Source: Patescibacteria group bacterium (GTDB taxonomy: Bacteria; Patescibacteriota; Microgenomatia; CAYGWK01). Taken from it: DNA of 64,000 nt. The position numbers and the translations under genes are program-made. The notes beneath the pieces were generated by a model, which ran no database searches, was not told where the DNA came from, and saw only the letters and a list, made by a program, of their open reading frames with translations. The stretch is taken from NCBI GenBank assembly GCA_049322615.1, contig JBMORX010000005.1, forward strand, positions 395 through 64,394. The letters run 5' to 3'. Below, one piece after another: positions 594 through 64,000 of this stretch (position 1 is the stretch's first letter; each line of letters opens with the position of its first letter).

Positions 594-1202
594 ATGAAAA
601 ACGTGGTTTTAATTTTGGCAAGTTTGGTTTTTGCTTTTGGGATTTTATCTGCCTCGGTTTGGAAGACCCAGGCTCAAACCTCAAGCAAAAATTTTAATGT
701 TCAACTGCTTCCTGAAGCTTTAGGGGCAAAATTGACTCCGACCCCAACGCCTGCGCCCACGGTTGATTATTATCTTCCATACCCTGGGATTTTGCCTGAC
801 CACCTGCTTTATCCAATAAAAATGATCAGGGACCGGGTTTTGTTGTTTTTGACTTTTGACCCAGTTAAAAAAGCCGAACGTTTACTTTTATATGCTGACA
901 AAAGAATCGGCGCCGCCAAGGCTCTAATCGAAGGAGGGAAGGTGGAACTGGGAATTTCGACCATGACCAAGGGAGAAAAATATTTAGAGCAGGCAATTGC
1001 CCAGGCAGAGAAAGCCCAAAAGGCAGGTAAAGACACCAGCGCTTTATACGAAAAACTTGCCAAAGCAACCTTAAAACATCAAGAGGTTTTGACTGGAGTT
1101 TTAGTTAAAGTTCCAGATGAGGCAAAAGGAGCAATTCAGGACGCTCTTCGCTATTCTCGCCAGGGGTATGAAACGGTAAGTAGGGTGATTGAAGAAAAGT
1201 AA
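594..1202 (+). CDS. hypothetical exported/membrane-anchored protein (N-terminal hydrophobic segment)
   Basis: ORF-track ORF 444-1202 starts at a TTG and reads through the leader repeat; ATG 594 has a strong SD (agagggggtga) and begins MKNVVLILASLVFAFGIL. Confidence 0.5.
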   Translation: MKNVVLILASLVFAFGILSASVWKTQAQTSSKNFNVQLLPEALGAKLTPTPTPAPTVDYYLPYPGILPDHLLYPIKMIRDRVLLFLTFDPVKKAERLLLYADKRIGAAKALIEGGKVELGISTMTKGEKYLEQAIAQAEKAQKAGKDTSALYEKLAKATLKHQEVLTGVLVKVPDEAKGAIQDALRYSRQGYETVSRVIEEK

Positions 1203-1207
1203 GAGGC

Positions 1208-1400
1208 TTTGCGGCTCGGGTAGGAATTTGTTAATTAGATGGTTCGGAGACGAACATTTTGCTTGAGTTTAGAGATGACGTCCGCCTTTGGCGGACACGG
1301 CCTGCTTAGAGAAGATTCCGAAAGTCTGGTGGCACTGTTTTCGGTTGGCGCAGGCCTGTCACATTAAACTCGGCGCAAAAGTTGTCTCCTCACCATCTGG
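1208..1400. repeat. F-family element copy 1 (about 190 nt, terminal inverted repeats, internal compensatory hairpin gtccgcctttggcggac)
   Basis: Shares conserved blocks (gctcggg..gaattt..ttgcttg..tttagagatg ... ggcgcaaaa(a/g)ttgt..cctc(g/a)cc) with 2017-2172 and 53415-53620. Confidence 0.5.
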
Positions 1401-1496
1401 TTTGGCACAAAAATTACTCAAAATCTTCTTCTGGTTTTTCTTTAAAAATAGCCAAAATTTTCTTATTTTGATATACTTTGATAGGTTATTTGCTAG

Positions 1497-1526
1497 TTGA
1501 CAAACTGGATGTAGTGGTTATATATT
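1497..1526 (+). promoter_or_regulatory. candidate sigma70-type promoter (TTGACA-18-TATATT) upstream of nrdR
   Basis: Hexamers seen at 1497-1502 and 1521-1526. Confidence 0.25.
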
Positions 1527-1532
1527 AATAAT

Positions 1533-1548
1533 TGCGCTATAAATAGCG
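1533..1548. promoter_or_regulatory. perfect palindrome gcgctataaatagcgc between promoter candidate and nrdR start; NrdR-box-like
   Basis: 7-bp arms; central ctATAaATag resembles the AT-rich palindromic NrdR-box core; followed by a T-run, so could alternatively be a small hairpin. Confidence 0.3.
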
Positions 1549-1562
1549 CTTTTATTTTCACC

Positions 1563-2006
1563 ATGCGGTGTCCATTTTGCGGTCACGACAATACTTGCGT
1601 TTTAGAATCCCGAATTTCTGAAGACGGAAATTCTTTTAGGCGAAGACGTGAATGTTCTAAATGTAAAAAGCGTTTTACGACTTATGAGCGGGTTGAAAGA
1701 ACTTTATTAGTTATCAAAAAAGATGGCAGACGAGAACCGTTTGATCGGGAGAAAATTAAAAAGGGGATACTTTTAGCCTGTCATAAAAGACCAGTCTCGC
1801 TAGAGGCGATTGATAATATCGTTGATGAAGCTGAGCAGGAGTTGTTACGAAAGGATTCGGCCGAGATTCCCTCAAAAATTATTGGAAATGCGGTTTTAAA
1901 AAGACTTAAAAAAGCTGATAAAGTCGCCTGGTTGAGGTTTGCCAGCGTTTATTTAGAATTTTCTGATTTATCAGATTTTGAAAAAGCGATTGAAAAGATA
2001 GGATAA
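1563..2006 (+). CDS. nrdR: transcriptional repressor NrdR
   Basis: N-terminal zinc ribbon MRCPFCGHDNTCVLESR...CSKCKKRFTTYERVE plus ATP-cone; adjacent to nrdDG. Confidence 0.9.
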   Translation: MRCPFCGHDNTCVLESRISEDGNSFRRRRECSKCKKRFTTYERVERTLLVIKKDGRREPFDREKIKKGILLACHKRPVSLEAIDNIVDEAEQELLRKDSAEIPSKIIGNAVLKRLKKADKVAWLRFASVYLEFSDLSDFEKAIEKIG

Positions 2007-2176: not shown

Positions 2177-4300
2177 ATGGAAAAGATGCAAAAATTAACT
2201 ATCAAAAAAATAAAGAAAAGGGATGGTAGAATCGTTCCTTTTGATCAAAGAAAAATTACTAATGCCATTTGGAAAGCGGCCGAATCAGTTGGGGGAAAAG
2301 ATAAAAAGAGAGCCAAATTTCTTTCTGATGAGGTAGTCAAAATTTTAGAAAAACGCTTCAATGGTCACACCCTTGCTACGGTTGAGCAAATTCAAGATAT
2401 TGTCGAGACTGTTTTAATGCGATCTGGACATTACACCACCGCCAAGGCTTATATTCTTTATCGCGACCTTCACAATAAAATCCGCGATGTTAAATCTTTA
2501 ATCGATTCAGATGAGTTAATGGGTAATTACTTAAATGGGACTGACTGGCGTATCCGCGAAAATAGCAACATGGCTTATTCTCTCCAGGGGTTAAATAATC
2601 ATGTGGCTTCAGCCATTTCTTCTCATTATTGGCTTAATAAACTTTATCCAAAAGAAGTGCGCGAGGCTCACCAAAGTGGCGATTTTCACCTCCACGACCT
2701 TCAACTTTTGGCTCCTTATTGCGTTGGTTGGGATTTTCAGGACCTTTTGCTTAAAGGTTTTACCGGCGTTTCGGGAAAAGTCTCCTCAAAGCCCGCCAAG
2801 CATTTCCGAACTGCCTTGGGGCAACTGGCTAATTTTCTTTATACGGTGCAAGGCGAATCAGCCGGCGCCAACGCTGTCTCAAACTTTGATACCCTGCTTG
2901 CCCCTTTTGTTTGGCAAGATAAACTTTCTTATAAAGAGGTTAAGCAAGTAATGCAGGAGTTTGTTTTTAATATGAATGTTCCCACTCGGGTTGGGTTTCA
3001 GGCACCCTTCACCAATCTTACCCTAGACCTGACTGTCCCAACGACTTTTGCCAATGAGGCAGCGATAGTTGGTGGCAAACCGCTTAACAGGAAACAATAT
3101 AAGGATTTTCAAAAAGAAATGGATTTGATAAATCAGGCATTTGCCGAAGTGATGCTTGAGGGAGATGCCCAGGGAAGAGTTTTTACCTGGCCAATTCCTA
3201 CTTATAATATCACTCGTGATTTCCAGTGGGGTAATGGTCTCCTAAAACCAATTTGGGAAATGACCGCCAAGTACGGAATTCCCTATTTTTCAAATTTTAT
3301 TAATTCTGATATGAAACCAGAAGATGCACGCTCAATGTGCTGCCGTCTTCGTTTAGATAAACGAGAGTTGAGAAAGCGAGGGGGGAGTTTTTTTGGCTCA
3401 AATCCCTTAACCGGTTCAATTGGGGTGGTAACCATTGATATGGGGCGAATTGGATTTTTGGCAAAAGATGAAAGAGATTATTTTAAAAGACTCAAAGCCC
3501 TGATGGACATTGCCCGAGATTCTTTGTTGACAAAGCGACAGGCTTTGGAACGATTGACAGAACAGAGGCTTTATCCTTATTCTAAATTTTATCTTTCAGG
3601 AATCAAAAAGCGCTTTGGCGGATACTGGCGCAATCATTTCAACACTATTGGTTTAAATGGAATGAATGAAAGTCTTTTGAATTTTTTGGGCGTTGACATT
3701 GGAACTCCAAAAGGAAGAAGGTTTGCTTTAAAGGTTTTGGATTTTATGAGGCTGAAATTAGGCGAATATCAAGAAGAGTCAAATGAACTTTTTAATCTTG
3801 AGGCAACTCCGGCTGAAGGGACAACCTACCGTTTTGCCAAACTTGACAAAAAACTCTATCCGGAGATTATCGTTGCCAATGAAAAAAATTACCAAGAAAA
3901 AGGGGCCGAGCCCTACTATACTAACTCTACCCATCTGCCGGTTGGCTACACTGACGACATTTTTGAGGCTTTAGAACTTCAGGATGAACTTCAGACAAAA
4001 TATACTGGGGGGACGGTTCTTCATGGTTTTCTTGGGGAGGCGGTCAAGGATGGTGAAGCGACTAAATTTTTGGTTAAAAAAATTGCCGAAAATTACCGTC
4101 TTCCTTACTATACCCTGACTCCGACTTTCAGTATCTGCTCAAGCCACGGATATCTTGAAGGCGAACATGAGGTTTGTCCCGAATGTGGAGAAACAACAGA
4201 AATTTTCTCCCGGGTTGTTGGTTATCTTAGGCCGGTTCAACAATGGAATGACGGCAAACAAGCCGAGTTTTCCGATAGGAAAGAATATCTGGTTGCATGA
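2177..4300 (+). CDS. nrdD: anaerobic ribonucleoside-triphosphate reductase (class III RNR)
   Basis: 707 aa; N-terminal ATP-cone; C-terminal CPECGE zinc site and glycyl-radical motif RVVGYLRPV. Confidence 0.9.
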   Translation: MEKMQKLTIKKIKKRDGRIVPFDQRKITNAIWKAAESVGGKDKKRAKFLSDEVVKILEKRFNGHTLATVEQIQDIVETVLMRSGHYTTAKAYILYRDLHNKIRDVKSLIDSDELMGNYLNGTDWRIRENSNMAYSLQGLNNHVASAISSHYWLNKLYPKEVREAHQSGDFHLHDLQLLAPYCVGWDFQDLLLKGFTGVSGKVSSKPAKHFRTALGQLANFLYTVQGESAGANAVSNFDTLLAPFVWQDKLSYKEVKQVMQEFVFNMNVPTRVGFQAPFTNLTLDLTVPTTFANEAAIVGGKPLNRKQYKDFQKEMDLINQAFAEVMLEGDAQGRVFTWPIPTYNITRDFQWGNGLLKPIWEMTAKYGIPYFSNFINSDMKPEDARSMCCRLRLDKRELRKRGGSFFGSNPLTGSIGVVTIDMGRIGFLAKDERDYFKRLKALMDIARDSLLTKRQALERLTEQRLYPYSKFYLSGIKKRFGGYWRNHFNTIGLNGMNESLLNFLGVDIGTPKGRRFALKVLDFMRLKLGEYQEESNELFNLEATPAEGTTYRFAKLDKKLYPEIIVANEKNYQEKGAEPYYTNSTHLPVGYTDDIFEALELQDELQTKYTGGTVLHGFLGEAVKDGEATKFLVKKIAENYRLPYYTLTPTFSICSSHGYLEGEHEVCPECGETTEIFSRVVGYLRPVQQWNDGKQAEFSDRKEYLVA

Positions 4301-23173: not shown

Positions 23174-23665
23174 ATGGGTGATTTAACCGAGCAAAAACTT
23201 GAACAGGGTGCAATCTTGCAAGATGAGCACGACAAGCCGGATATTTTTGCAAGACTCCCGAAAATAAAATTCAATTTTGATGAGGAAGGCAGATTTACGG
23301 GTTACGACACCCCGGGTAAAAATCCTCAAAGGGGACTTACATCTTCAAATTTAGGACCAGTTTTGTGGAATAGTGAGCCCCACAGGAAAGCCTTTCAAGC
23401 ATACGATGCCGTTATGAGGTGCCCGAAAGTCTACGCTGCTACTCATGGGTTTGGGTACTGGAGTGATAAAGATGCTCCAAATGAGTTTGCTCCAATCCAA
23501 GAACGAGCCAGGGCGACAGTAGGAGGGGAGATCACCAAAGAGTGCGAGAGGTTTGTTCAAGATATAATTGACTGGACAAACTCTCACCCTAAGCTTTTTG
23601 AAGATTATTTACGAGAAGTGGAAGAAGAGGGTGAATTTGTAATTGTAAAGGTCAAGAAGATTTGA
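23174..23665 (+). CDS. hypothetical protein
   Basis: 163-aa ORF. Confidence 0.3.
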   Translation: MGDLTEQKLEQGAILQDEHDKPDIFARLPKIKFNFDEEGRFTGYDTPGKNPQRGLTSSNLGPVLWNSEPHRKAFQAYDAVMRCPKVYAATHGFGYWSDKDAPNEFAPIQERARATVGGEITKECERFVQDIIDWTNSHPKLFEDYLREVEEEGEFVIVKVKKI

Positions 23666-24475: not shown

Positions 24476-24898
24476 TTAACTCTTTCTGTTTTTCCAATCG
24501 ATGCCAAAACTCCATTTATATCGCTCAAAGGTAATTTTTGCTTTATCAAAAAATATGTCTTGACCAAGAATGCAAGGGTATTCTTGAGTTAAAGATCCGC
24601 CGAAATAAACAGGAAGGATTAAATCTCGACCAGCAATTTCTATGGTGATTTCTTTAGGAAAACAATCCATTTTGCTTTGATTAAATCCCGTAATGGAAAC
24701 AGGTTTAATCTTCTTAAAATTAATTCCCAGATAAAGCGCTATTTTAAATGTAGCAAAAGAATAGTCGGCGCCTGAATCAATTAGAGTCAGAATTGGATAT
24801 GTCTCTTTAGATTTGTATTTATACCGCACTGGAACTAACGGACGTGGAGTAGCGGAAGGGTCTCCGGGCAAAACAAAATAGGGAAACTCCATTTTCAA
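24476..24898 (-). CDS. retropepsin-like aspartic protease
   Basis: LIDSGAD active-site motif; homologous to 63302-63712. Confidence 0.6.
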   Translation of the reverse strand: MKMEFPYFVLPGDPSATPRPLVPVRYKYKSKETYPILTLIDSGADYSFATFKIALYLGINFKKIKPVSITGFNQSKMDCFPKEITIEIAGRDLILPVYFGGSLTQEYPCILGQDIFFDKAKITFERYKWSFGIDWKNRKS

Positions 24899-25107
24899 GT
24901 AATAAAACCGCGATAATTTTGTGCAGCAGAAATAAGAACTATTTCCGGGCTACCTAGTCTTTTTAATTTTAGATCAATTTCTTTTAAAGACTTTCCCCAG
25001 GTTACCACTCTCTTGTAATCTACAGAGAGAGCCACCCACCCAGAGGAATAATCTTTTAATAGCTTAACAAGAGAAACTGGTTTTTCCATCTGGAGAGATT
25101 TTAGCAT
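24895..25107 (-). CDS. small protein partner of retropepsin-like protease
   Basis: 70 aa; stop overlaps protease start (ATGA); similar to 63700-63942 (KR.V..GK.L.(D/E)I..L..K). Confidence 0.4.
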   Translation of the reverse strand: MLKSLQMEKPVSLVKLLKDYSSGWVALSVDYKRVVTWGKSLKEIDLKLKRLGSPEIVLISAAQNYRGFIT

Positions 25108-25262
25108 ATTAAAAGGGGCAGTGCAATTCCTAATTTTCTTCTTCTTGTTATTTTCCGCAGAATTTGCGATAATTAAATAAGTAATTAGTAAATAGTAATT
25201 TGTAATTTGGACTAGACGTTTTTCTCCTAATTACTAATTACCAATTACGAATTACTAGATTA

Positions 25263-25409
25263 ATGTACGTTCCTGAATTTACAATCACTAACGAAATCTT
25301 GAAAAACATTGGCATTATTGAAGCCTGTCGGCCCAGCCAAATTTTACCTCTCGCCTTAGTAGATTTCTACTGCGGCTCGAGGAGCAATTTTAGGCGGGTT
25401 TGGCAGTAA
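25263..25409 (+). CDS. upstream ORF: N-terminal mimic of Fic (MYVPEFTITNEILKNIGIIEA) running through an E-family palindromic element; stops 4 nt before fic start
   Basis: See findings; first 21 codons encode near-identical peptide to fic N-terminus with mostly synonymous differences. Confidence 0.5.
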   Translation: MYVPEFTITNEILKNIGIIEACRPSQILPLALVDFYCGSRSNFRRVWQ

Positions 25410-25413
25410 AATC

Positions 25414-26547
25414 GTGTATCAACCAAAATTTACAATTACCAACGATATTCTTAAGAATATAGGCATCGTGGAAGCTGCCAAAGAAGTGATTGATAACGCT
25501 CCTTTGGTCCCGGCTTGGGAGAAGAAGTTTCGCGAAGAGGCGATGGTGCGGACGGTTCACTACGGCACTCATCTTGAGGGAAATGAGCTTTCTTTTTCTG
25601 AAGCAGAAAAAGTTTTGGAAGGACAAAAAATTGTTGCCAAAGACAGAGATATTCAAGAAGTTATAAATTATCGTAAGGTGATTAAGTATCTAGATGAATT
25701 GGTTCCGAATGAAGAACCTGCAACACCCGCCTCCGCCAAGGCTACGGCGGGCAGGCAGAAAGCACAGAAGGAAGCAGAGAGCATAGAGAAACCATATACT
25801 GAAGCGATGCTTAAAAAAATCCACTTTTTAACTTGTTATCGGATTATTCCCAAAGACCAGGCAGGTAAATTCCGCCAAACCCAGGTGGTTTTAAGAAATT
25901 CTCAAACTGGAGAAGTTGCTTTCAAACCACCACCTTCCGCTCAAGTTCCTGCTCTTGTTTCCGATTTCCTAGGCTGGTTGAATTCGGAAAGTGGAAAAAG
26001 CATTCATCCAGTGATGCGGGCGGGGATTACTCATTACGCTTTGGCGGCAATTCATCCTTTTGTTGAGGGAAATGGTCGGACCGCCCGGGCTTTTGCCACC
26101 TTGATTTTGTTCTCCGAAGGCTACGACATTAAAAAATTTTTCTCTTTAGAGGAATATTTTGACAAAGATGCTCCTTCTTATTATTCTGCCCTGATGCAAG
26201 TTTCAAACCAGAGCGAAAATCTTTCTCAAAGAGACCTAACGCCCTGGATTGAATATTTCGCCAAAGCCCTTGCCTTAGAGTTGACAAGAATAAAAGAGAG
26301 AGTGAGAAAACTTTCTTTAGACTTAAAAATTAAGGGAAGGCTGGGGCGGCAGATTGCTTTATCAGAACGACAAATGAAACTAGTTGAATACCTGGAGGAA
26401 TATAAAGAAATTACCGTTCCCCAGGCTCGCCAGATTCTTCAAATGGTTTCCGATGATACCATCCTTCGCGACTTGAAAGACCTGGTTAAAAAGAAGATAA
26501 TCAAAAAAGAGGGGAAAACTAAGGCAGCAAAATACGTTATGAAATAG
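25414..26547 (+). CDS. Fic family protein (AMPylation-type)
   Basis: HPFVEGNGRTARAF Fic motif; C-terminal winged helix; in-frame C-family insert at 25727-25790. Confidence 0.8.
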   Translation: MYQPKFTITNDILKNIGIVEAAKEVIDNAPLVPAWEKKFREEAMVRTVHYGTHLEGNELSFSEAEKVLEGQKIVAKDRDIQEVINYRKVIKYLDELVPNEEPATPASAKATAGRQKAQKEAESIEKPYTEAMLKKIHFLTCYRIIPKDQAGKFRQTQVVLRNSQTGEVAFKPPPSAQVPALVSDFLGWLNSESGKSIHPVMRAGITHYALAAIHPFVEGNGRTARAFATLILFSEGYDIKKFFSLEEYFDKDAPSYYSALMQVSNQSENLSQRDLTPWIEYFAKALALELTRIKERVRKLSLDLKIKGRLGRQIALSERQMKLVEYLEEYKEITVPQARQILQMVSDDTILRDLKDLVKKKIIKKEGKTKAAKYVMK

Positions 26548-59396: not shown

Positions 59397-61954
59397 AAGA
59401 TTTAAGGCGACTTTTGTTTTTTCTTTTTTTTCTTTCTGGTTTCTCTGCTTTGGTTTATGAGGTAGTTTGGGCAAGAAAGCTTTCTTTAGTTTTTGGAACA
59501 ACAGTTTTTGCTGTGAGTTCGATTCTGGCGGTGTTTTTTGCGGGATTAGCGATTGGAAGCTGGGTTTTTGGTCACTTCGTGGATCATCCGAATAGAATGC
59601 GAATGAAAATAATCCGAATAAACGCGAATACGCCACTATTACTTTATGGTTTGTTAGAATTGGGGATCGGGTTGTATGCGGCGGGGACGCCGTGGATTTT
59701 TAAGCTGGTTGAGAACCTGCAGGTTTCTTTTTGGCAGAAATTTACACCCAATTTTTACGGGTTTAGCCTTTTTACCTTTTTTCTTTCCTTTCTGGGCTTG
59801 ATTATTCCGACTACTTTAATGGGTGGAACTTTACCTGTTTTATCTAAATTCTTGGTTAGAGAAGAGGAAGAGATTGGGAGTGGAGTAGGGGTTTTGTATT
59901 TTGTCAATACTTTAGGGGCGACAATGGGAGCACTTCTTGCAGGATTTTGGTTGATTGCTACCCTTGGGGTTAGTCAAACAATCTGGACAGCAACAGTAAT
60001 TAACATCCTCATTGGAATAACAGTGCTTTGGTTAACGCGAATAAATGCTGATATTAAGCTGACGCATGTTGATGTCAGCGCCGATAAGCGCCAATCAGAA
60101 TCGGTTCCAATCAGCACCAATCAGCGAATATTGTTAGCCGCTTTTGCCCTCATGGGCTTCAGTGCCCTGGCTCTGGAAGTGCTTTGGACTCGTGTCTTAA
60201 TTTTATTTTTTGGCGGTTCGGTTTATGCTTTTACGACTGTTTTAGTGACTTTTTTGCTAGGGATAGCGCTGGGGAGCGCGATGGTAAGTAAGTTATTAAG
60301 CTACTACGCTATCAAGAATCTTTTGCTGTGGTTTGGGGCTGGAGCAGTAATTCTGGGAATTTCAGTGATTGTGAGCACCCCCTTTTTTCAAGAAATGCCC
60401 TTTTGGCTTTTAGGGATTCTTAAGGAGGCTCGTGGTTCTTTTGGAACAGTCACCGTTTGGGAATTTATTCTTTCTTTTTTAATTATGTTTGTTCCCACTT
60501 TTTTGATGGGGGTACTATTTCCTCTAGGAGTAAAGATTTATACCCAGGAGTTGGCTGGTCTAGGCCAATCGGTGGGTAGACTTTATGGCGTTAACACCTT
60601 CGGAGGAATTCTCGGTTCTTTGGCAGCCGGATTTTTACTTGTTCCCCTAATTGGTGTTCAAAAAGGAATTTGGCTGGCGGCAATACTTTATTTTTTAGTG
60701 GGCGGGGCAATTTTAATAAAGGCTGGAATCAATAAAACAGTCAAATTATTGACATATTCCTTTATATTTTTAATTATTTCGATAGGGTATTTCTTGCCAT
60801 CTTGGAACAAACATTTTTTGGTTTCTGGACCTTTTGCTAATTGGCGATTTTTTGTTTGGGACAGTCGGGAACAGGCAGAAAAAAGAATGCAAGCCTCGGA
60901 GCTTCTTTATTATAAAGAGGGGTTGGAAGCGGTGGTGGCGGTGAAAAAGAGCGGGGAGCAGATTTTTTTGCGGATTAACGGTAAAACCGATGCAGCCACA
61001 GGCTTGGACATGGATACCCAGATTCTCTCGGGACAGTTGCCAATGCTTTTACACCCAAACCCCCAGGATGTTTTAGTGATTGGTTTGGGTTCAGGGATTA
61101 CTTTGGGATCGGTGGAAACCTATCTTCTTAAAATCGTTGAGGCAGTAGAAATTGAACCGGCGGTGGTCGAGGCGGCAAAGTATTTTTCCGAGGCAAACTG
61201 GAATGCCTTGGAGGATAAAAGATTAAAAATGATTGTCGGAGACGGCCGGCATTATCTTTTGGGGACTTCAAAGAAATACGATATCATTACTTCCGAGCCT
61301 TCAAATCCTTATCTTGCCGGGCCCTCCAAACTCTTTACCAAAGAGTATTTTAATCTGGTTAAAAGTCGTTTAAAGGAAGAGGGACTTGTGGCTCAGTGGA
61401 TTCAATTGTATACCTTAGATACCCAAGATCTGAAAATGGTCATTAAAACTTTTCAAAGCGTTTTTCCTTATGTGACTGTTTGGGATAACCTTTCTTCGTA
61501 TGATCTTCTACTGATAGGAAGCGAGGAACCTCAAGAACTTGACCTTTCTTTGCTGGGGAAAAAATTTAGGGAAGAAAAGATAAAAAAGGATTTAGCGAGA
61601 ATTTTTATTGAAAATCCCGAGCAGTTTTTAAGTTATTTAGCCTTAGACAGTCGGGGAGTGGAAGATTTTACCCAAGGAGCAAAGGAAAATACAGATAACC
61701 ACCCGATTTTGGAATTTTCCGCCCCCAAAACCCTTTATCAGGCAACGACAAGCAAAAACATAGAGAGCTTTAAGGATTTAAGACCCAAATTGGGTGGTAA
61801 ATACGCTGAATTTCGCCAGCATGTAGTTTTGGCAAAGATGTATTTTACTCGGGGAGAAAATGAGAAAGCGGTGGCAGAATATAAAGAAGCCCTAAGGATT
61901 GATCCGGAGAACGGTTGGGTAAAACTAACCCTTGAGGGGTTAAAAGGAAGATGA
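59369..61954 (+). CDS. fused multi-TM domain + spermidine-synthase-fold domain + TPR protein
   Basis: N-terminal approx 12 TM; C-terminal VLVIGLGSGITLG...DIITSEPSNPYLAG aminopropyltransferase fold; C-terminal TPR. Confidence 0.7.
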   Translation: MVEKEIFAMKDLRRLLFFLFFLSGFSALVYEVVWARKLSLVFGTTVFAVSSILAVFFAGLAIGSWVFGHFVDHPNRMRMKIIRINANTPLLLYGLLELGIGLYAAGTPWIFKLVENLQVSFWQKFTPNFYGFSLFTFFLSFLGLIIPTTLMGGTLPVLSKFLVREEEEIGSGVGVLYFVNTLGATMGALLAGFWLIATLGVSQTIWTATVINILIGITVLWLTRINADIKLTHVDVSADKRQSESVPISTNQRILLAAFALMGFSALALEVLWTRVLILFFGGSVYAFTTVLVTFLLGIALGSAMVSKLLSYYAIKNLLLWFGAGAVILGISVIVSTPFFQEMPFWLLGILKEARGSFGTVTVWEFILSFLIMFVPTFLMGVLFPLGVKIYTQELAGLGQSVGRLYGVNTFGGILGSLAAGFLLVPLIGVQKGIWLAAILYFLVGGAILIKAGINKTVKLLTYSFIFLIISIGYFLPSWNKHFLVSGPFANWRFFVWDSREQAEKRMQASELLYYKEGLEAVVAVKKSGEQIFLRINGKTDAATGLDMDTQILSGQLPMLLHPNPQDVLVIGLGSGITLGSVETYLLKIVEAVEIEPAVVEAAKYFSEANWNALEDKRLKMIVGDGRHYLLGTSKKYDIITSEPSNPYLAGPSKLFTKEYFNLVKSRLKEEGLVAQWIQLYTLDTQDLKMVIKTFQSVFPYVTVWDNLSSYDLLLIGSEEPQELDLSLLGKKFREEKIKKDLARIFIENPEQFLSYLALDSRGVEDFTQGAKENTDNHPILEFSAPKTLYQATTSKNIESFKDLRPKLGGKYAEFRQHVVLAKMYFTRGENEKAVAEYKEALRIDPENGWVKLTLEGLKGR

Positions 61955-62520
61955 GAGGTCCAAAAGCCACTTTTTCTACGATTTTCCTTATTTTGGTCAT
62001 CACCTTGATGATCCTGCCTTTTTTGACTACCTTTAATGAGTTTTTGACTGCCTTGATTTACAAAATTGGTTGGTATCGGGTGATACAAGATTTTCTTCTT
62101 CCTTTTGAAACACGGATGATTGTCGTGGTCGTGGAAATTTTAGGGCAGAAAGCAGTTGCGGGGATCTCCACGGTTAGTGTTTTGCGCGATGATGTCTGGC
62201 AAAAAATTGCTATTTCCTGGAACTGTATTGGTTGGCAATCGGCTTTAGTTTTATTCGTAACTCTCTTAACTGGTCTTCAAGGACCATATACTAAAGTCTC
62301 TAAGTTGGAGTGTCTGGCGATAGGGATTTTAGGGACGTTTCTGATTAATATTTTAAGAATCAGCTTGGTGGCGATTTTGATTGTTTATATCAATGCCATT
62401 CCCGCCACCGTTGCTCATGATTATTTTTCTGCCTTCATCTTAATTCTTTGGCTTTTTTTCTATTGGTGGTTCTCGTATAGTTTTGTATTAGAAGAGAAGA
62501 TAATAAGAGAAGACGGATGA
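61951..62520 (+). CDS. exosortase/archaeosortase-family-like small polytopic membrane protein
   Basis: 189 aa, about 6 TM; conserved Cys in SWNCIGWQS followed about 40 aa later by NILRI (N..R), the order of exosortase catalytic residues. Confidence 0.45.
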   Translation: MRGPKATFSTIFLILVITLMILPFLTTFNEFLTALIYKIGWYRVIQDFLLPFETRMIVVVVEILGQKAVAGISTVSVLRDDVWQKIAISWNCIGWQSALVLFVTLLTGLQGPYTKVSKLECLAIGILGTFLINILRISLVAILIVYINAIPATVAHDYFSAFILILWLFFYWWFSYSFVLEEKIIREDG

Positions 62521-62585: not shown

Positions 62586-62846
62586 TTAATTCCGAACTTT
62601 AACTCTTAGACTATTTTTTAAGCTTCTTGACAAAGTCGGCGGTTGAGATTTCCAGATCCCGAAGAATTCCTTTAAAGGTTCCCTTTTTGATTTTGTTCTG
62701 CCAGCGTGAATGGGAATGACCACTCTTCTTTTAGTTTCTGGATTTCTTAAAACTAGATGGCTGCCCTTCTGGTGATCTTTGACAAAGCCGAGTTTTTGGG
62801 CAACCTTGATGATTTCTTTATGGGTGACAACAGGCAGTTTAGTCAT
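62586..62846 (-). pseudogene. hicA: HicA-family toxin, frameshifted
   Basis: MTKLPVVTHKEIIKVAQKLGFVKDHQKGSHLVL...RRVVIPIHAGR, then canonical C-terminus IKKGTFKGILRDLEISTADFVKKLKK is in another frame (62590-62670). Confidence 0.55.
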
Positions 62847-63103
62847 GCCAGGGCAAGTCTGCCAGTTTTGGGAGAGGAAACACGGACAGTGGCAATCACT
62901 TGTTCGTCTACCTGTTCAACCGGGATTTCTTCTCCATGTTTGGCTAGGCTTTCCAGATAGGCCTCAATAGCCTCGGCAATATTTTTCTTTGCCTCATCCA
63001 AGGTCTCACCATAAGAATGACAACCTCGCAAAGTGGGACAATAAGCATGATAACCGCCGTCTTTTTCTGGCTCGAAGATAACACGAAAATTTTGAGTAAC
63101 CAT
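62843..63103 (-). CDS. hicB: HicB-family antitoxin
   Basis: YHAYCPTLRGCHSYGETLDEAKKNIAEAIEAYLE. Confidence 0.7.
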   Translation of the reverse strand: MVTQNFRVIFEPEKDGGYHAYCPTLRGCHSYGETLDEAKKNIAEAIEAYLESLAKHGEEIPVEQVDEQVIATVRVSSPKTGRLALA

Positions 63104-63301: not shown

Positions 63302-63712
63302 CTAGGAGTTGAGGATTGTCTTGAAATCCCTCATGATGAGCTCAATTGCCTCAAGACATTCAAGTCTTCCCAAAACTGGAGGAAAATCGTCACGTTTTAA
63401 AAACCCCACCGGTATCTTTGTTGCCCAAGTGCCGATTTTTATCGACAAAGCCTTATACTGATAAACAGTTTCTGTGCCTCCGACACCAAAGGTGATCTCT
63501 GTCCGACAATCAGATGTCAAGTCAATTCCCAGTATTTGGGCATAGCGTTTTGGCAAAAGTGTATAGTCCGCCCCTGTGTCTACAAGCATTTCTACTGGTT
63601 GCCAGGCTTTCCTTGCTTTTGAGTAAAGCAAAAGATGAAGATAGGGACGAAAAATTTTTCCCAGAAAGGTCTTTCCCTTATAGGTGAAAGGTTCGAAAGT
63701 TATCTGGGGCAT
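63302..63712 (-). CDS. retropepsin-like aspartic protease
   Basis: LVDTGAD active site. Confidence 0.6.
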   Translation of the reverse strand: MPQITFEPFTYKGKTFLGKIFRPYLHLLLYSKARKAWQPVEMLVDTGADYTLLPKRYAQILGIDLTSDCRTEITFGVGGTETVYQYKALSIKIGTWATKIPVGFLKRDDFPPVLGRLECLEAIELIMRDFKTILNS

Positions 63713-63942
63713 AAAATTAAGATGTAAGAGATATCAGGGCGGGGGATAAAAACGATTGTTGGTGTTTCTTTGTATTTTTTTTCTAAACGCTTGATATCAG
63801 CTAAGCCAGCTTTGCCTCTTTTCAGGGGAATAATTTCTCGCTTTACTACTAAAACATGTTTTCCGGCAAATTTTGCCGCTTGAGGATGACGTCCTGAAAG
63901 AAGGGCAGTCAAAATCTGGCGGGTTGTTTTTGCTTTCTTCAT
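63700..63942 (-). CDS. small protein partner of retropepsin-like protease
   Basis: 80 aa; overlaps protease start; similar to 24895-25107. Confidence 0.4.
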   Translation of the reverse strand: MKKAKTTRQILTALLSGRHPQAAKFAGKHVLVVKREIIPLKRGKAGLADIKRLEKKYKETPTIVFIPRPDISYILILCPR

Positions 63943-64000
63943 ACCTTAAATGATAAGAAACTTTCCGTTTATTGTCAACTAGCTGTTCTGGTTACATACT

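What the first reader, a model, noticed from the sequence alone, without database searches (positions are those of the whole stretch)
24476..25107. Duplicated two-gene module: small basic protein overlapping a retropepsin-like aspartic protease
Two loci (24476-25107 and 63302-63942, both minus strand) each encode a 70-80-aa protein whose stop overlaps the start of a 136-140-aa retropepsin-like protease (LIDSGAD / LVDTGAD). The small proteins are mutually similar (..V..KR.V..GK.L.(D/E)I..L..K..). The gene-pair organisation resembles a toxin-antitoxin or protease-regulator couple. One copy lies next to the frameshifted hicBA pair and the other next to an Isf-type flavoprotein gene. I do not recognise this pairing as a characterised system.
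Basis: seen in the sequence. Interest (0 to 1): 0.55.

Follow-up and report, generated by a model that had tools for sequence, protein, structure and literature searches.

The report
DUF5678 small protein plus retropepsin-like protease
Two divergent copies of a conserved two-gene cassette, a small DUF5678 protein translationally coupled to an HIV-protease-like enzyme, sit in this candidate-phyla-radiation genome; the pairing is widespread, undescribed in the searched literature, and most likely a protease kept in check by its own small partner.

Summary
Both loci carry a small ORF (70 and 80 aa) abutting or overlapping a 136-140 aa retropepsin-like protease gene with DSGAD/DTGAD motifs.

The two copies are distant paralogues, not a recent duplication. 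The proteases are 27% identical and the small proteins about 16%. BLASTP and hhalign find nothing between the small proteins.

Both small proteins belong to Pfam DUF5678, small2 directly but just below threshold. Small1 is linked only through its relatives and a shared predicted topology.

The pairing is real and general. In 66 non-redundant external pairs from Patescibacteria and other, mostly groundwater, metagenomes, 61 of 65 gene pairs overlap by 4-13 nt. The partners co-diverge (Mantel r 0.79). The small ORFs are under purifying selection (dN/dS 0.10-0.26). Flanking genes are unrelated from locus to locus.

An unseeded extra pair in a WOR-3 genome passes both Pfam thresholds.

No paper, solved structure, PADLOC, PHROG or NCBIfam model describes the pair. 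PADLOC's untested candidates PDC-M08 and PDC-M52 resemble only the protease.

Best reading, inferred and not shown: a toxin-antitoxin-like module in which the small protein's conserved C-terminal tail neutralises its cognate cytoplasmic protease. A protease-substrate switch is the main rival.

Moderately interesting; a new variant of a known kind.

The parts
24895..25107 (-). small1: 70-aa basic (pI 9.9) divergent DUF5678-like protein (NCBI start at 25089, 64 aa)
   Evidence: ORF. Homologues P0027 and P0028. 6 of 7 family members hit Pfam DUF5678, best E 2.7e-7, but this copy does not. AF2 pLDDT 81 with alpha-beta-beta-alpha-beta plus tail. dN/dS 0.13-0.26.
24898..24927 (-). small1 C-terminal tail AAQNYRGFIT, with family-invariant A61 N64 Y65 R66 G67 T70; a candidate protease-binding motif
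   Evidence: Invariant columns. No secondary structure in the model. The role is inferred.
24476..24898 (-). protease1: 138-140 aa retropepsin-like aspartic protease with DSGAD (D41, codon 24776-24778) and ILGQD; lacks the GG flap motif
   Evidence: Leave-out profile E 1.1e-11. PADLOC PDC-M52B E 8.5e-5. NCBI name.
63700..63942 (-). small2: 80-aa basic (pI 10.7) DUF5678 protein
   Evidence: ORF. Pfam DUF5678 20.3 bits, E 4.8e-4. All 25 close relatives hit DUF5678. 387 relatives. AF2 pLDDT 92. dN/dS 0.12-0.22.
63718..63744 (-). small2 conserved extended tail P67-R-x-D-x-S-Y-I-L75, at least 90% conserved in 117 sequences and upstream of the 13-nt gene overlap
   Evidence: near-invariant columns; no secondary structure, high pLDDT. 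The role as an interaction motif is inferred.
63302..63712 (-). protease2: 136-aa retropepsin-like aspartic protease with DTGAD (D45, codon 63578-63580), a GVGG flap and VLGR
   Evidence: Pfam PF13975 41.2 bits and PF13650 36.7 bits. Nearest solved sequences are HIV-2 and SIV protease, then Ddi1 and ApRick. Family conservation.
63950..63978 (-). promoter-like site TTGACA-17-TATCAT (11 of 12), ending 8 nt before the small2 ATG; implies a leaderless or near-leaderless operon transcript
   Evidence: This is a consensus match only, and function is not shown.

Best explanation
Each locus is an autonomous two-gene operon of a widespread, uncharacterised family. A small basic DUF5678 protein is translated first. 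A cytoplasmic, retropepsin-like (HIV-protease-type, presumably homodimeric) aspartic protease follows, whose start codon lies inside or next to the small gene's stop.

Most likely it works like a type II toxin-antitoxin or protease-inhibitor pair. The small protein binds its own protease one-to-one and keeps it inactive, probably through its strongly conserved, extended, hydrophobic C-terminal tail. When the small protein is lost or outpaced, for example by stress, phage infection or loss of the cassette, the freed protease cleaves cellular or invader proteins.

Shown: gene anatomy, coding status, conservation of the pair, co-divergence, variable context, an intact catalytic motif, and absence of signal peptides or membrane segments.

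Inferred: physical binding, inhibition through the tail, toxicity, and the trigger.
For: 1. Conserved pair.
- Among 20 genome loci seeded with small2 relatives, 14 have a 133-138 aa D[TS]GA ORF directly downstream. Two more intact ones appeared on inspection, plus two decayed ones.
- About 70 of 80 metagenome loci seeded with a distant DUF5678 subgroup show the same arrangement.
- Both small1 relatives also show it.
- An unseeded extra pair in L027 passes Pfam thresholds for both DUF5678 (30.6 bits) and Asp_protease_2 (26.3 bits).

2. Coupling. 61 of 65 pairs overlap by 4-13 nt and 2 have a 2-nt gap.

3. Co-evolution as a unit. Mantel r is 0.79, and 0 of 1000 permutations reach it. Each subfamily has its own internally conserved tail: ISYIL, DTLIL or NYRGFIT.

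4. Tail conservation is not explained by the gene overlap. Residues 67-75 of small2 are at least 90% conserved, while the overlap covers only the last 4 codons.

5. The protease looks active. D[TS]GAD[YF] is present in 68 of 68 and the hydrophobic-hydrophobic-G-[RQ] motif in 67 of 68. There is no hydrophobic segment.

6. It behaves as a mobile, self-contained cassette.
- 102 flanking ORFs hit 104 different Pfam families with no recurrent third partner. Phage integrase is the top family, with 4.
- There are two copies in this 64-kb window and four in one WOR-3 genome.
- Toxin-antitoxin neighbours include HicBA and Fic here, two MNT-HEPN pairs in L004 and DUF433 in L027.

7. Retropepsin-like second genes of two-gene cassettes are already listed as untested phage-defence candidates, PDC-M08 and PDC-M52.

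8. Established knowledge, from my own recall and not tested here: free HIV-1 protease is toxic when expressed in E. coli. A cytoplasmic retropepsin therefore plausibly needs a guardian.
Against: - No binding, toxicity or neutralisation was tested, and no complex model could be run.
- DUF5678 shows no recognisable DNA-binding or known antitoxin fold. Foldseek against PDB and BFVD gave nothing significant, with best E values 0.8-2.9.
- No full-length natural fusion was found among the DUF5678 hits.
- Both partners are basic, which gives no charge-complementarity hint.
- The observed decay pattern is ascertainment-biased, because the surveys were seeded with the small protein. In that pattern the protease is truncated or lost while the small gene is kept. 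It therefore cannot count as support.
- The module was not found on sequenced plasmids or phages, or in IMG/VR.
- Neighbour enrichment for toxin-antitoxin genes was not quantified.
Confidence: 0.42

Rival explanations
1. Protease-substrate or regulator switch, working like ImmR/ImmA. The small DUF5678 protein is the dedicated substrate. The protease cleaves it, probably in the conserved tail, on a signal. This switches the small protein's own, unknown activity on or off rather than unleashing a toxic protease.
For: The anatomy is the same as for the best explanation: an upstream small gene, overlap and co-divergence. The tail is extended, hydrophobic and subfamily-specific, as a cleavage site would be. 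Small genes persist intact where the protease is truncated or lost, which is compatible with an independent role. Examples are L025, L028, L052 and L087.
Against: The small protein has no recognisable effector, DNA-binding or enzymatic fold. No recurrent neighbouring gene exists that it could regulate. No cleavage evidence exists.
Confidence: 0.25
2. Non-selfish proteostasis pair. The small protein is an adaptor or chaperone that delivers substrates to, or assists dimerisation of, a housekeeping retropepsin-like protease. This would loosely parallel the ubiquitin-like plus retropepsin domains of Ddi1.
For: The gene order mirrors the Ddi1 domain order. The Ddi1 retropepsin domain is among the nearest solved sequences, at E 0.15. 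A few non-significant beta-grasp proteins (PB1, MoaD, UFD) appear in the Foldseek list for small2.
Against: All fold matches are non-significant, with E above 2 and TM about 0.3. The cassette is sporadic, multi-copy and sits in unrelated contexts, which is atypical of housekeeping genes. Decayed copies are common.
Confidence: 0.1
3. Gag-pro-like recoding. The small ORF and the protease are joined by a programmed -1 ribosomal frameshift into one fusion protein, as in retroviruses.
For: The protease lies in the -1 frame relative to the small ORF in 61 of 65 pairs, derived from the overlap lengths.
Against: Only 14 of 68 pairs have any X_XXY_YYZ heptamer in the open window, and those lie at scattered positions. 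A start codon sits at the expected N-terminus in 65 of 68 pairs; the start-finding rule found none in 3. No full-length fusion protein was found among the DUF5678 hits. The phase bias is inherited, not independent.
Confidence: 0.03
4. The small ORFs are chance or non-coding reading frames upstream of ordinary protease genes.
For: Small1 itself hits no Pfam model and is missed by a leave-out profile.
Against: dN/dS is 0.10-0.26 with saturated synonymous sites. 387 relatives were found. AF2 models are confident, with pLDDT 92 and 81. The position is conserved in more than 60 loci.
Confidence: 0.01

Closest known systems
Type II toxin-antitoxin modules (e.g. HicBA, VapBC, MNT-HEPN)
   Same: Two short co-directional genes with the smaller one first. 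A short overlap that suggests translational coupling. Patchy distribution, several copies per genome and variable context. Neighbours are often other toxin-antitoxin pairs.
   Different: The downstream gene is a retropepsin-like aspartic protease. That is not a toxin class I know of, and none turned up in the literature searches. The upstream protein has no known antitoxin or DNA-binding fold. Toxicity and neutralisation are untested.
PADLOC phage-defence candidates PDC-M08 and PDC-M52 (Payne et al. 2024, bioRxiv 10.1101/2024.01.29.577857)
   Same: They are two-gene cassettes whose second gene (the B component) resembles these proteases. Protease2 matches PDC-M08B at E 1.9e-8 and protease1 matches PDC-M52B at E 8.5e-5. 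They were predicted by guilt-by-embedding and are untested.
   Different: None of 53 DUF5678 proteins from all subgroups hits any PDC A component. The protease2 match covers only the catalytic core. The first gene is therefore different or unrecognisably diverged.
Stand-alone prokaryotic retropepsin-like proteases (COG3577/COG5550, TIGR02281/TIGR03698, Rickettsia APRc, Pseudomonas RimB, the Sulfolobales CRISPR type III-associated Asp_prot)
   Same: A single-domain clan AA fold with DTG/DSG and an ILG-type motif. Function is little known (PMC2642776). Some lie in defence contexts (PMC3973734). RimB acts on a defined partner system (PMC11957791).
   Different: The window proteases score far below the TIGR cut-offs. 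They carry a roughly 20-residue N-terminal extension and a DUF5678 partner. A second retropepsin-like gene in L004, of the DTGAV type, has no such partner. The pairing is therefore clade-specific.
ImmR/ImmA and Xre/COG2856 protease-repressor pairs
   Same: A small upstream protein and a dedicated downstream protease, found on mobile or sporadic cassettes.
   Different: There the protease is a zinc metalloprotease and the partner a helix-turn-helix repressor. Neither feature is present here.
Eukaryotic Ddi1 (ubiquitin-like domain plus retropepsin domain)
   Same: A retropepsin-type domain preceded by a small alpha/beta module. The Ddi1 retropepsin domain is a weak sequence match.
   Different: Here they are separate genes. 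No significant beta-grasp match was found for DUF5678.

Membership tests
Clan AA retropepsin-like aspartic protease | Catalytic Asp-Thr/Ser-Gly-Ala motif | tested here: met
   LVDTGAD (D45) in protease2 and LIDSGAD (D41) in protease1. D[TS]GAD[YF] is present in 68 of 68 partner proteases.
Clan AA retropepsin-like aspartic protease | Pfam family match above the gathering score | tested here: met
   Protease2 scores 41.2 bits on PF13975 (cut-off 28.2) and 36.7 bits on PF13650 (cut-off 24.3). Protease1 alone is below threshold (RVP_2, 17.5 against 20.3). It matches a leave-out profile of partner proteases at E 1.1e-11. Its relative in L007 hits PF13975 at E 6.8e-5, also below threshold.
Clan AA retropepsin-like aspartic protease | Second signature (hydrophobic-hydrophobic-Gly-Arg/Gln, the 'ILG' template) and a Gly-rich flap | tested here: met
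   VLGR in protease2 and ILGQ in protease1, and the motif is present in 67 of 68. The GVGG flap is present in protease2 and in the consensus but absent from protease1.
Clan AA retropepsin-like aspartic protease | Homodimer with proteolytic activity | not testable with these tools
   Needs biochemistry or multimer modelling.
Pfam DUF5678 (PF18929) | HMM match at or above the gathering score (23.2 bits) | tested here: inconclusive
   Small2 scores 20.3 bits, E 4.8e-4, just below threshold. All 25 close relatives match, best E 3.2e-9. Small1 has no match, but 6 of 7 family members match, best E 2.7e-7. Small1 is missed by a leave-out profile and by hhalign.
Pfam DUF5678 (PF18929) | Common fold of the two small proteins | tested here: met
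   AF2 gives small2 H-H-E-E-H-E plus tail (pLDDT 92). It gives small1 H-E-E-H-E plus tail (pLDDT 81). The order of elements is the same, but the models were not superposed.
Type II toxin-antitoxin module | Two adjacent co-directional small genes, tightly spaced or overlapping, conserved as a pair | tested here: met
   61 of 65 overlap by 4-13 nt; co-divergence.
Type II toxin-antitoxin module | Sporadic, multi-copy, context-independent distribution | tested here: met
   104 Pfam families occur among 102 flanking ORFs. There are two copies in the window and four in one WOR-3 genome.
Type II toxin-antitoxin module | The toxin arrests growth, and the antitoxin neutralises it by direct binding | not testable with these tools
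   No experiment or complex model was possible.
Type II toxin-antitoxin module | The antitoxin carries a DNA-binding domain for autoregulation | tested here: inconclusive
   No HTH, RHH, AbrB or Phd match by Pfam or Foldseek. The protein is basic. A 40-nt inverted repeat lies upstream of small1 but was not examined in relatives.
PADLOC PDC-M08 / PDC-M52 | Both components (A and B) match the system's models | tested here: not met
   The B component matches weakly. The A component gives no hit for the window proteins or for 53 DUF5678 proteins from all subgroups.
ImmA/IrrE (COG2856) with Xre-type repressor pair | Zinc metalloprotease plus helix-turn-helix partner | tested here: not met
   The protease is an aspartic clan AA enzyme, and the small protein has no HTH match.
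Ddi1-like ubiquitin-like plus retropepsin architecture | Beta-grasp (ubiquitin-like) fold of the N-terminal module | tested here: inconclusive

The most novel reading that the evidence does not exclude
DUF5678 proteins are natural, cognate protein inhibitors of retropepsin-type proteases; I know of no such inhibitor for this protease class, from my own recall. On this reading the DUF5678-retropepsin cassette is a new protease-based toxin-antitoxin or abortive-infection family, common in candidate-phyla-radiation bacteria. The subfamily-specific C-terminal tail would set partner specificity.
Probability: 0.3. Interest if true: 0.7.

Novelty: new variant of a known kind. Interest (0 to 1): 0.5.

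Why it matters
Single-domain retropepsin-like proteases are widespread in bacteria and archaea, yet almost none has a known role.

If this reading holds, a dedicated, co-evolving small partner would give one clade a testable function. It would add an aspartic protease to the known toxin and effector classes. It would also assign a role to a domain of unknown function.

If DUF5678 proves to be a protein inhibitor of a retropepsin fold, its binding mode could inform the design of dimer-interface or active-site inhibitors.

The cassette is also one of the few recurrent accessory modules in the small genomes of candidate-phyla-radiation bacteria, whose conflict systems are poorly charted.

Tried and rejected
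- **Direct similarity of the two small proteins.** BLASTP found none. hhalign was not significant for A1 against A2 and for A7 against A5. A leave-out HMM misses small1. The link rests on Pfam DUF5678 hits of relatives and on predicted topology.
- **PADLOC A-component match.** None was found for any DUF5678 subgroup. PHROGs and NCBIfam gave nothing useful.
- **Plasmid, phage or IMG/VR carriage.** No match.
- **Gag-pro-like programmed -1 frameshift.** No conserved slippery site.
- **A conserved third gene.** None.
- **Natural full-length fusion (Rosetta stone).** None was found. There are only deletion-fusions joining the small protein to the protease C-terminus.
- **Decay pattern as support for a toxin-antitoxin role.** Copies with the protease lost and the small gene kept were first considered as support. 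This was rejected as ascertainment bias, because every survey was seeded with the small protein.
- **Compositional anomaly around the modules.** None; GC is about 0.38-0.41, like the rest of the window.
- **Shine-Dalgarno absence upstream of the protease start.** Only 3 of 65 pairs have such a motif. This is uninformative, because the small genes lack it too (7 of 65).
- **Complex structure prediction.** Not possible. The tool takes one chain, and only two jobs were allowed.

Full report
**What is in the window**

Both loci are as described.

- Copy 1, minus strand: a 70-aa ORF at 24895-25107. NCBI annotates 64 aa, starting from M7. It is followed by a 140-aa ORF at 24476-24898, whose TTG overlaps the TGA stop by 4 nt. 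NCBI starts this protein at the ATG at 24892, 2 nt after the stop, giving 138 aa.
- Copy 2, minus strand: an 80-aa ORF at 63700-63942, followed by a 136-aa ORF at 63302-63712 with a 13-nt overlap.

The larger proteins carry LIDSGAD (D41) and LVDTGAD (D45). They also carry the second retropepsin signature, ILGQ and VLGR.

The contig is a Patescibacteria (candidate phyla radiation) metagenome-assembled genome. NCBI already names both larger proteins 'retropepsin-like aspartic protease' and both small ones 'hypothetical protein'.

**The proteases**

Protease2 passes the Pfam thresholds for gag-asp_proteas and Asp_protease_2. Its nearest solved sequences are the HIV-2, SIV and FIV proteases, then the Ddi1 retropepsin domain and Rickettsia ApRick.

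Protease1 is divergent. On its own it is below every Pfam and NCBIfam threshold, and it lacks the glycine flap motif. A profile built only from partner proteases of other loci still finds it at E 1.1e-11 among the window's ORFs. That profile excluded the window sequences and the family-1 sequences.

The two proteases are 27% identical. They are old paralogues or independent acquisitions, not a recent duplication. Neither has a hydrophobic segment, so both are presumably cytoplasmic.

**The small proteins**

Small2 hits Pfam DUF5678 just below threshold (20.3 bits). All 25 of its close relatives hit it, best E 3.2e-9. A profile search found 387 relatives of about 79 aa, mostly from Microgenomates.

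Small1 hits nothing itself and has only two close relatives. An exhaustive HMMER search added four more. Six of the seven members of this family hit DUF5678, best E 2.7e-7.

Direct tests between the two small families fail. BLASTP, hhalign and a leave-out profile all find nothing.

AlphaFold models give the same order of elements for both (helix, beta-hairpin, long helix, strand, extended tail), but they were not superposed.
- Small2: pLDDT 92.
- Small1: pLDDT 81.

No solved or viral-predicted structure matches significantly.

The ORFs are genuine genes. Pairwise dN/dS is 0.10-0.26, with synonymous sites near saturation.

**Is the pairing conserved?**

Yes, strongly.

- Look-ups of five relatives showed the same small gene followed by the protease in unrelated contexts.
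- A scan of species-representative genomes with the small2 family gave 20 loci. They come from Microgenomates, and also from Omnitrophota, Elusimicrobia, Ratteibacteria, WOR-3 and a Bacteroidia genome.
  - 14 of the 20 have a 133-138 aa D[TS]GA ORF directly downstream.
  - Two more have it on inspection, and two carry an inactivated or truncated remnant.
- A metagenome scan with a distant DUF5678 subgroup gave 80 loci. That subgroup is homologous to the small2 family by hhalign at 99% probability. About 70 of the 80 carry the protease immediately downstream. The rest are contig ends, deletion-fusions or losses.
- From all loci I assembled 66 non-redundant pairs, or 68 with the two window pairs.
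  - D[TS]GAD[YF] is present in 68 of 68.
  - 61 of 65 gene pairs overlap by 4-13 nt, with 10 nt the most common.
  - Pairwise identities of the small proteins track those of the proteases. Mantel r is 0.79, and 0 of 1000 permutations reach it.
- An HMM sweep of all fetched DNA found one additional, unseeded module on the other strand of L027. It passes Pfam thresholds for both DUF5678 and Asp_protease_2, and it sits next to a DUF433 gene.
- Conversely, a second retropepsin-like gene in L004, of a different DTGAV clade, has no small partner. The pairing is therefore specific to one protease clade.

**Context**

The 102 genes flanking 67 non-redundant modules hit 104 different Pfam families, with no recurrent third partner. 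Phage integrase is the most frequent, with four. Many neighbours are housekeeping genes.

In the window, copy 1 lies between an FMN reductase and a Fic/HTH gene. Copy 2 lies next to HicB-HicA. L004 has two MNT-HEPN pairs beside the module.

The module was not found on sequenced plasmids or phages, or on IMG/VR contigs. Local composition is unremarkable.

A near-consensus promoter-like site ends 8 nt before the small2 start.

**How it probably works**

Four facts can be read directly from the data:
- The small protein is made first, and the protease start is embedded in or next to its stop.
- The partners evolve together.
- The cassette is autonomous, sporadic and multi-copy.
- The catalytic apparatus is intact.

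The small protein's C-terminal tail is as conserved as its core. P67, R68, D70, S72, Y73, I74 and L75 are at least 90% conserved in 117 sequences. This stretch lies upstream of the 13-nt overlap, so overlapping coding does not explain it. The tail is extended in the model. It also differs between subfamilies in step with the protease: ISYIL, DTLIL or NYRGFIT.

From these facts I infer a toxin-antitoxin-like guardian mechanism. My own recall that free retroviral protease is toxic in E. coli, not tested here, also feeds this inference. The small protein would bind its cognate protease through the tail and hold it inactive until the balance is disturbed. I put this at about 0.4.

The main rival, at about 0.25, is a protease-substrate switch in which the small protein is cleaved in that same tail.

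Three other readings are unlikely or excluded:
- A housekeeping adaptor role resembling Ddi1, about 0.1. It lacks significant fold support and fits the sporadic distribution poorly.
- A gag-pro-like -1 frameshift. There is no conserved slippery site.
- Non-coding small ORFs. These are excluded by the coding evidence above.

One caution applies. Decayed copies keep the small gene and lose the protease, but every survey was seeded with the small protein. This pattern is therefore not evidence for toxicity.

**Comparison with what is known**

Full-text searches found no paper on DUF5678 function. They also found none linking retropepsin-like proteases to toxin-antitoxin systems.

Prokaryotic single-domain clan AA proteases are described as little known (PMC2642776). 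RimB is one characterised example (PMC11957791). Small retropepsin-domain proteins have been noted beside archaeal type III CRISPR loci (PMC3973734).

PADLOC lists two untested two-gene 'phage defence candidates', PDC-M08 and PDC-M52. Their second genes weakly resemble these proteases. None of 53 DUF5678 proteins matches their first genes. The window modules are therefore not members of those candidates.

**Verdict**

- Observation: confirmed.
- Interpretation: partly supported.
- What it is: a real, widespread, uncharacterised DUF5678-retropepsin cassette. It is best filed as a new variant of the toxin-antitoxin or protease-guardian kind.
- Mechanism: inferred, not shown.
- Interest: 0.5.

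Noticed in passing
window 25172-25264: A 40-nt imperfect inverted repeat (80% complementary, arms 25172-25211 and 25225-25264) built of GTAATT-type units. It lies in the divergent intergenic region between small1 and the Fic fragment. It could be an operator or just AT-rich repeats.
   Followed up: no
window 25263-25409 (+) and 25414-26547 (+): A 48-aa ORF whose first 21 or so residues duplicate the N-terminus of the adjacent 377-aa Fic/DOC plus HTH_DeoR protein. This is a partial tandem duplication of the fic 5' end.
   Followed up: partly
window 62586-63103 (-): A HicB-HicA pair directly downstream of copy 2, with its own promoter-like site at 63142-63114. HicA matches only profile positions 2-43 of 58, and its C-terminus deviates.
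   Followed up: partly
L027 (WOR-3 genome, JAPLUO010000122.1) 916-1583 (-) and 2977-3614 (+): Two DUF5678-protease modules on opposite strands of one locus. The seeded one has an in-frame stop in the protease. The unseeded one is intact, overlaps by 1 nt and sits next to a DUF433 gene. The same genome has two more degraded copies, L028 and L029.
   Followed up: yes
P0128, P0170, P0138; L036 244-528; L059 207-503: Recurrent deletion-fusion ORFs in which an intact or nearly intact small protein is joined in frame to the last 30 or so residues of the protease (the LLGR...F region). This is a repeated decay route for the cassette.
   Followed up: partly
L004 3835-4254 (+): A second retropepsin-like protease of a different clade (LVDTGAV, above Pfam thresholds) with no DUF5678 partner. 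It lies beside two MNT-HEPN pairs and pilin-like genes.
   Followed up: partly
window 63712-63698 (-), protease2 N-terminus: Protease2 begins MPQITF, which resembles the PQITLW N-terminus of mature HIV-1 protease (from my own recall). It is followed by an RP motif at the position equivalent to R8-P9. This is probably coincidence plus fold constraints. Relatives start MPKI, MPQI or MLKI.
   Followed up: no
window 23174-23665 (+) and 61951-62520 (+): ORFs of 163 aa and 189 aa, the latter membrane-like, have no Pfam match at E <= 0.01.
   Followed up: no
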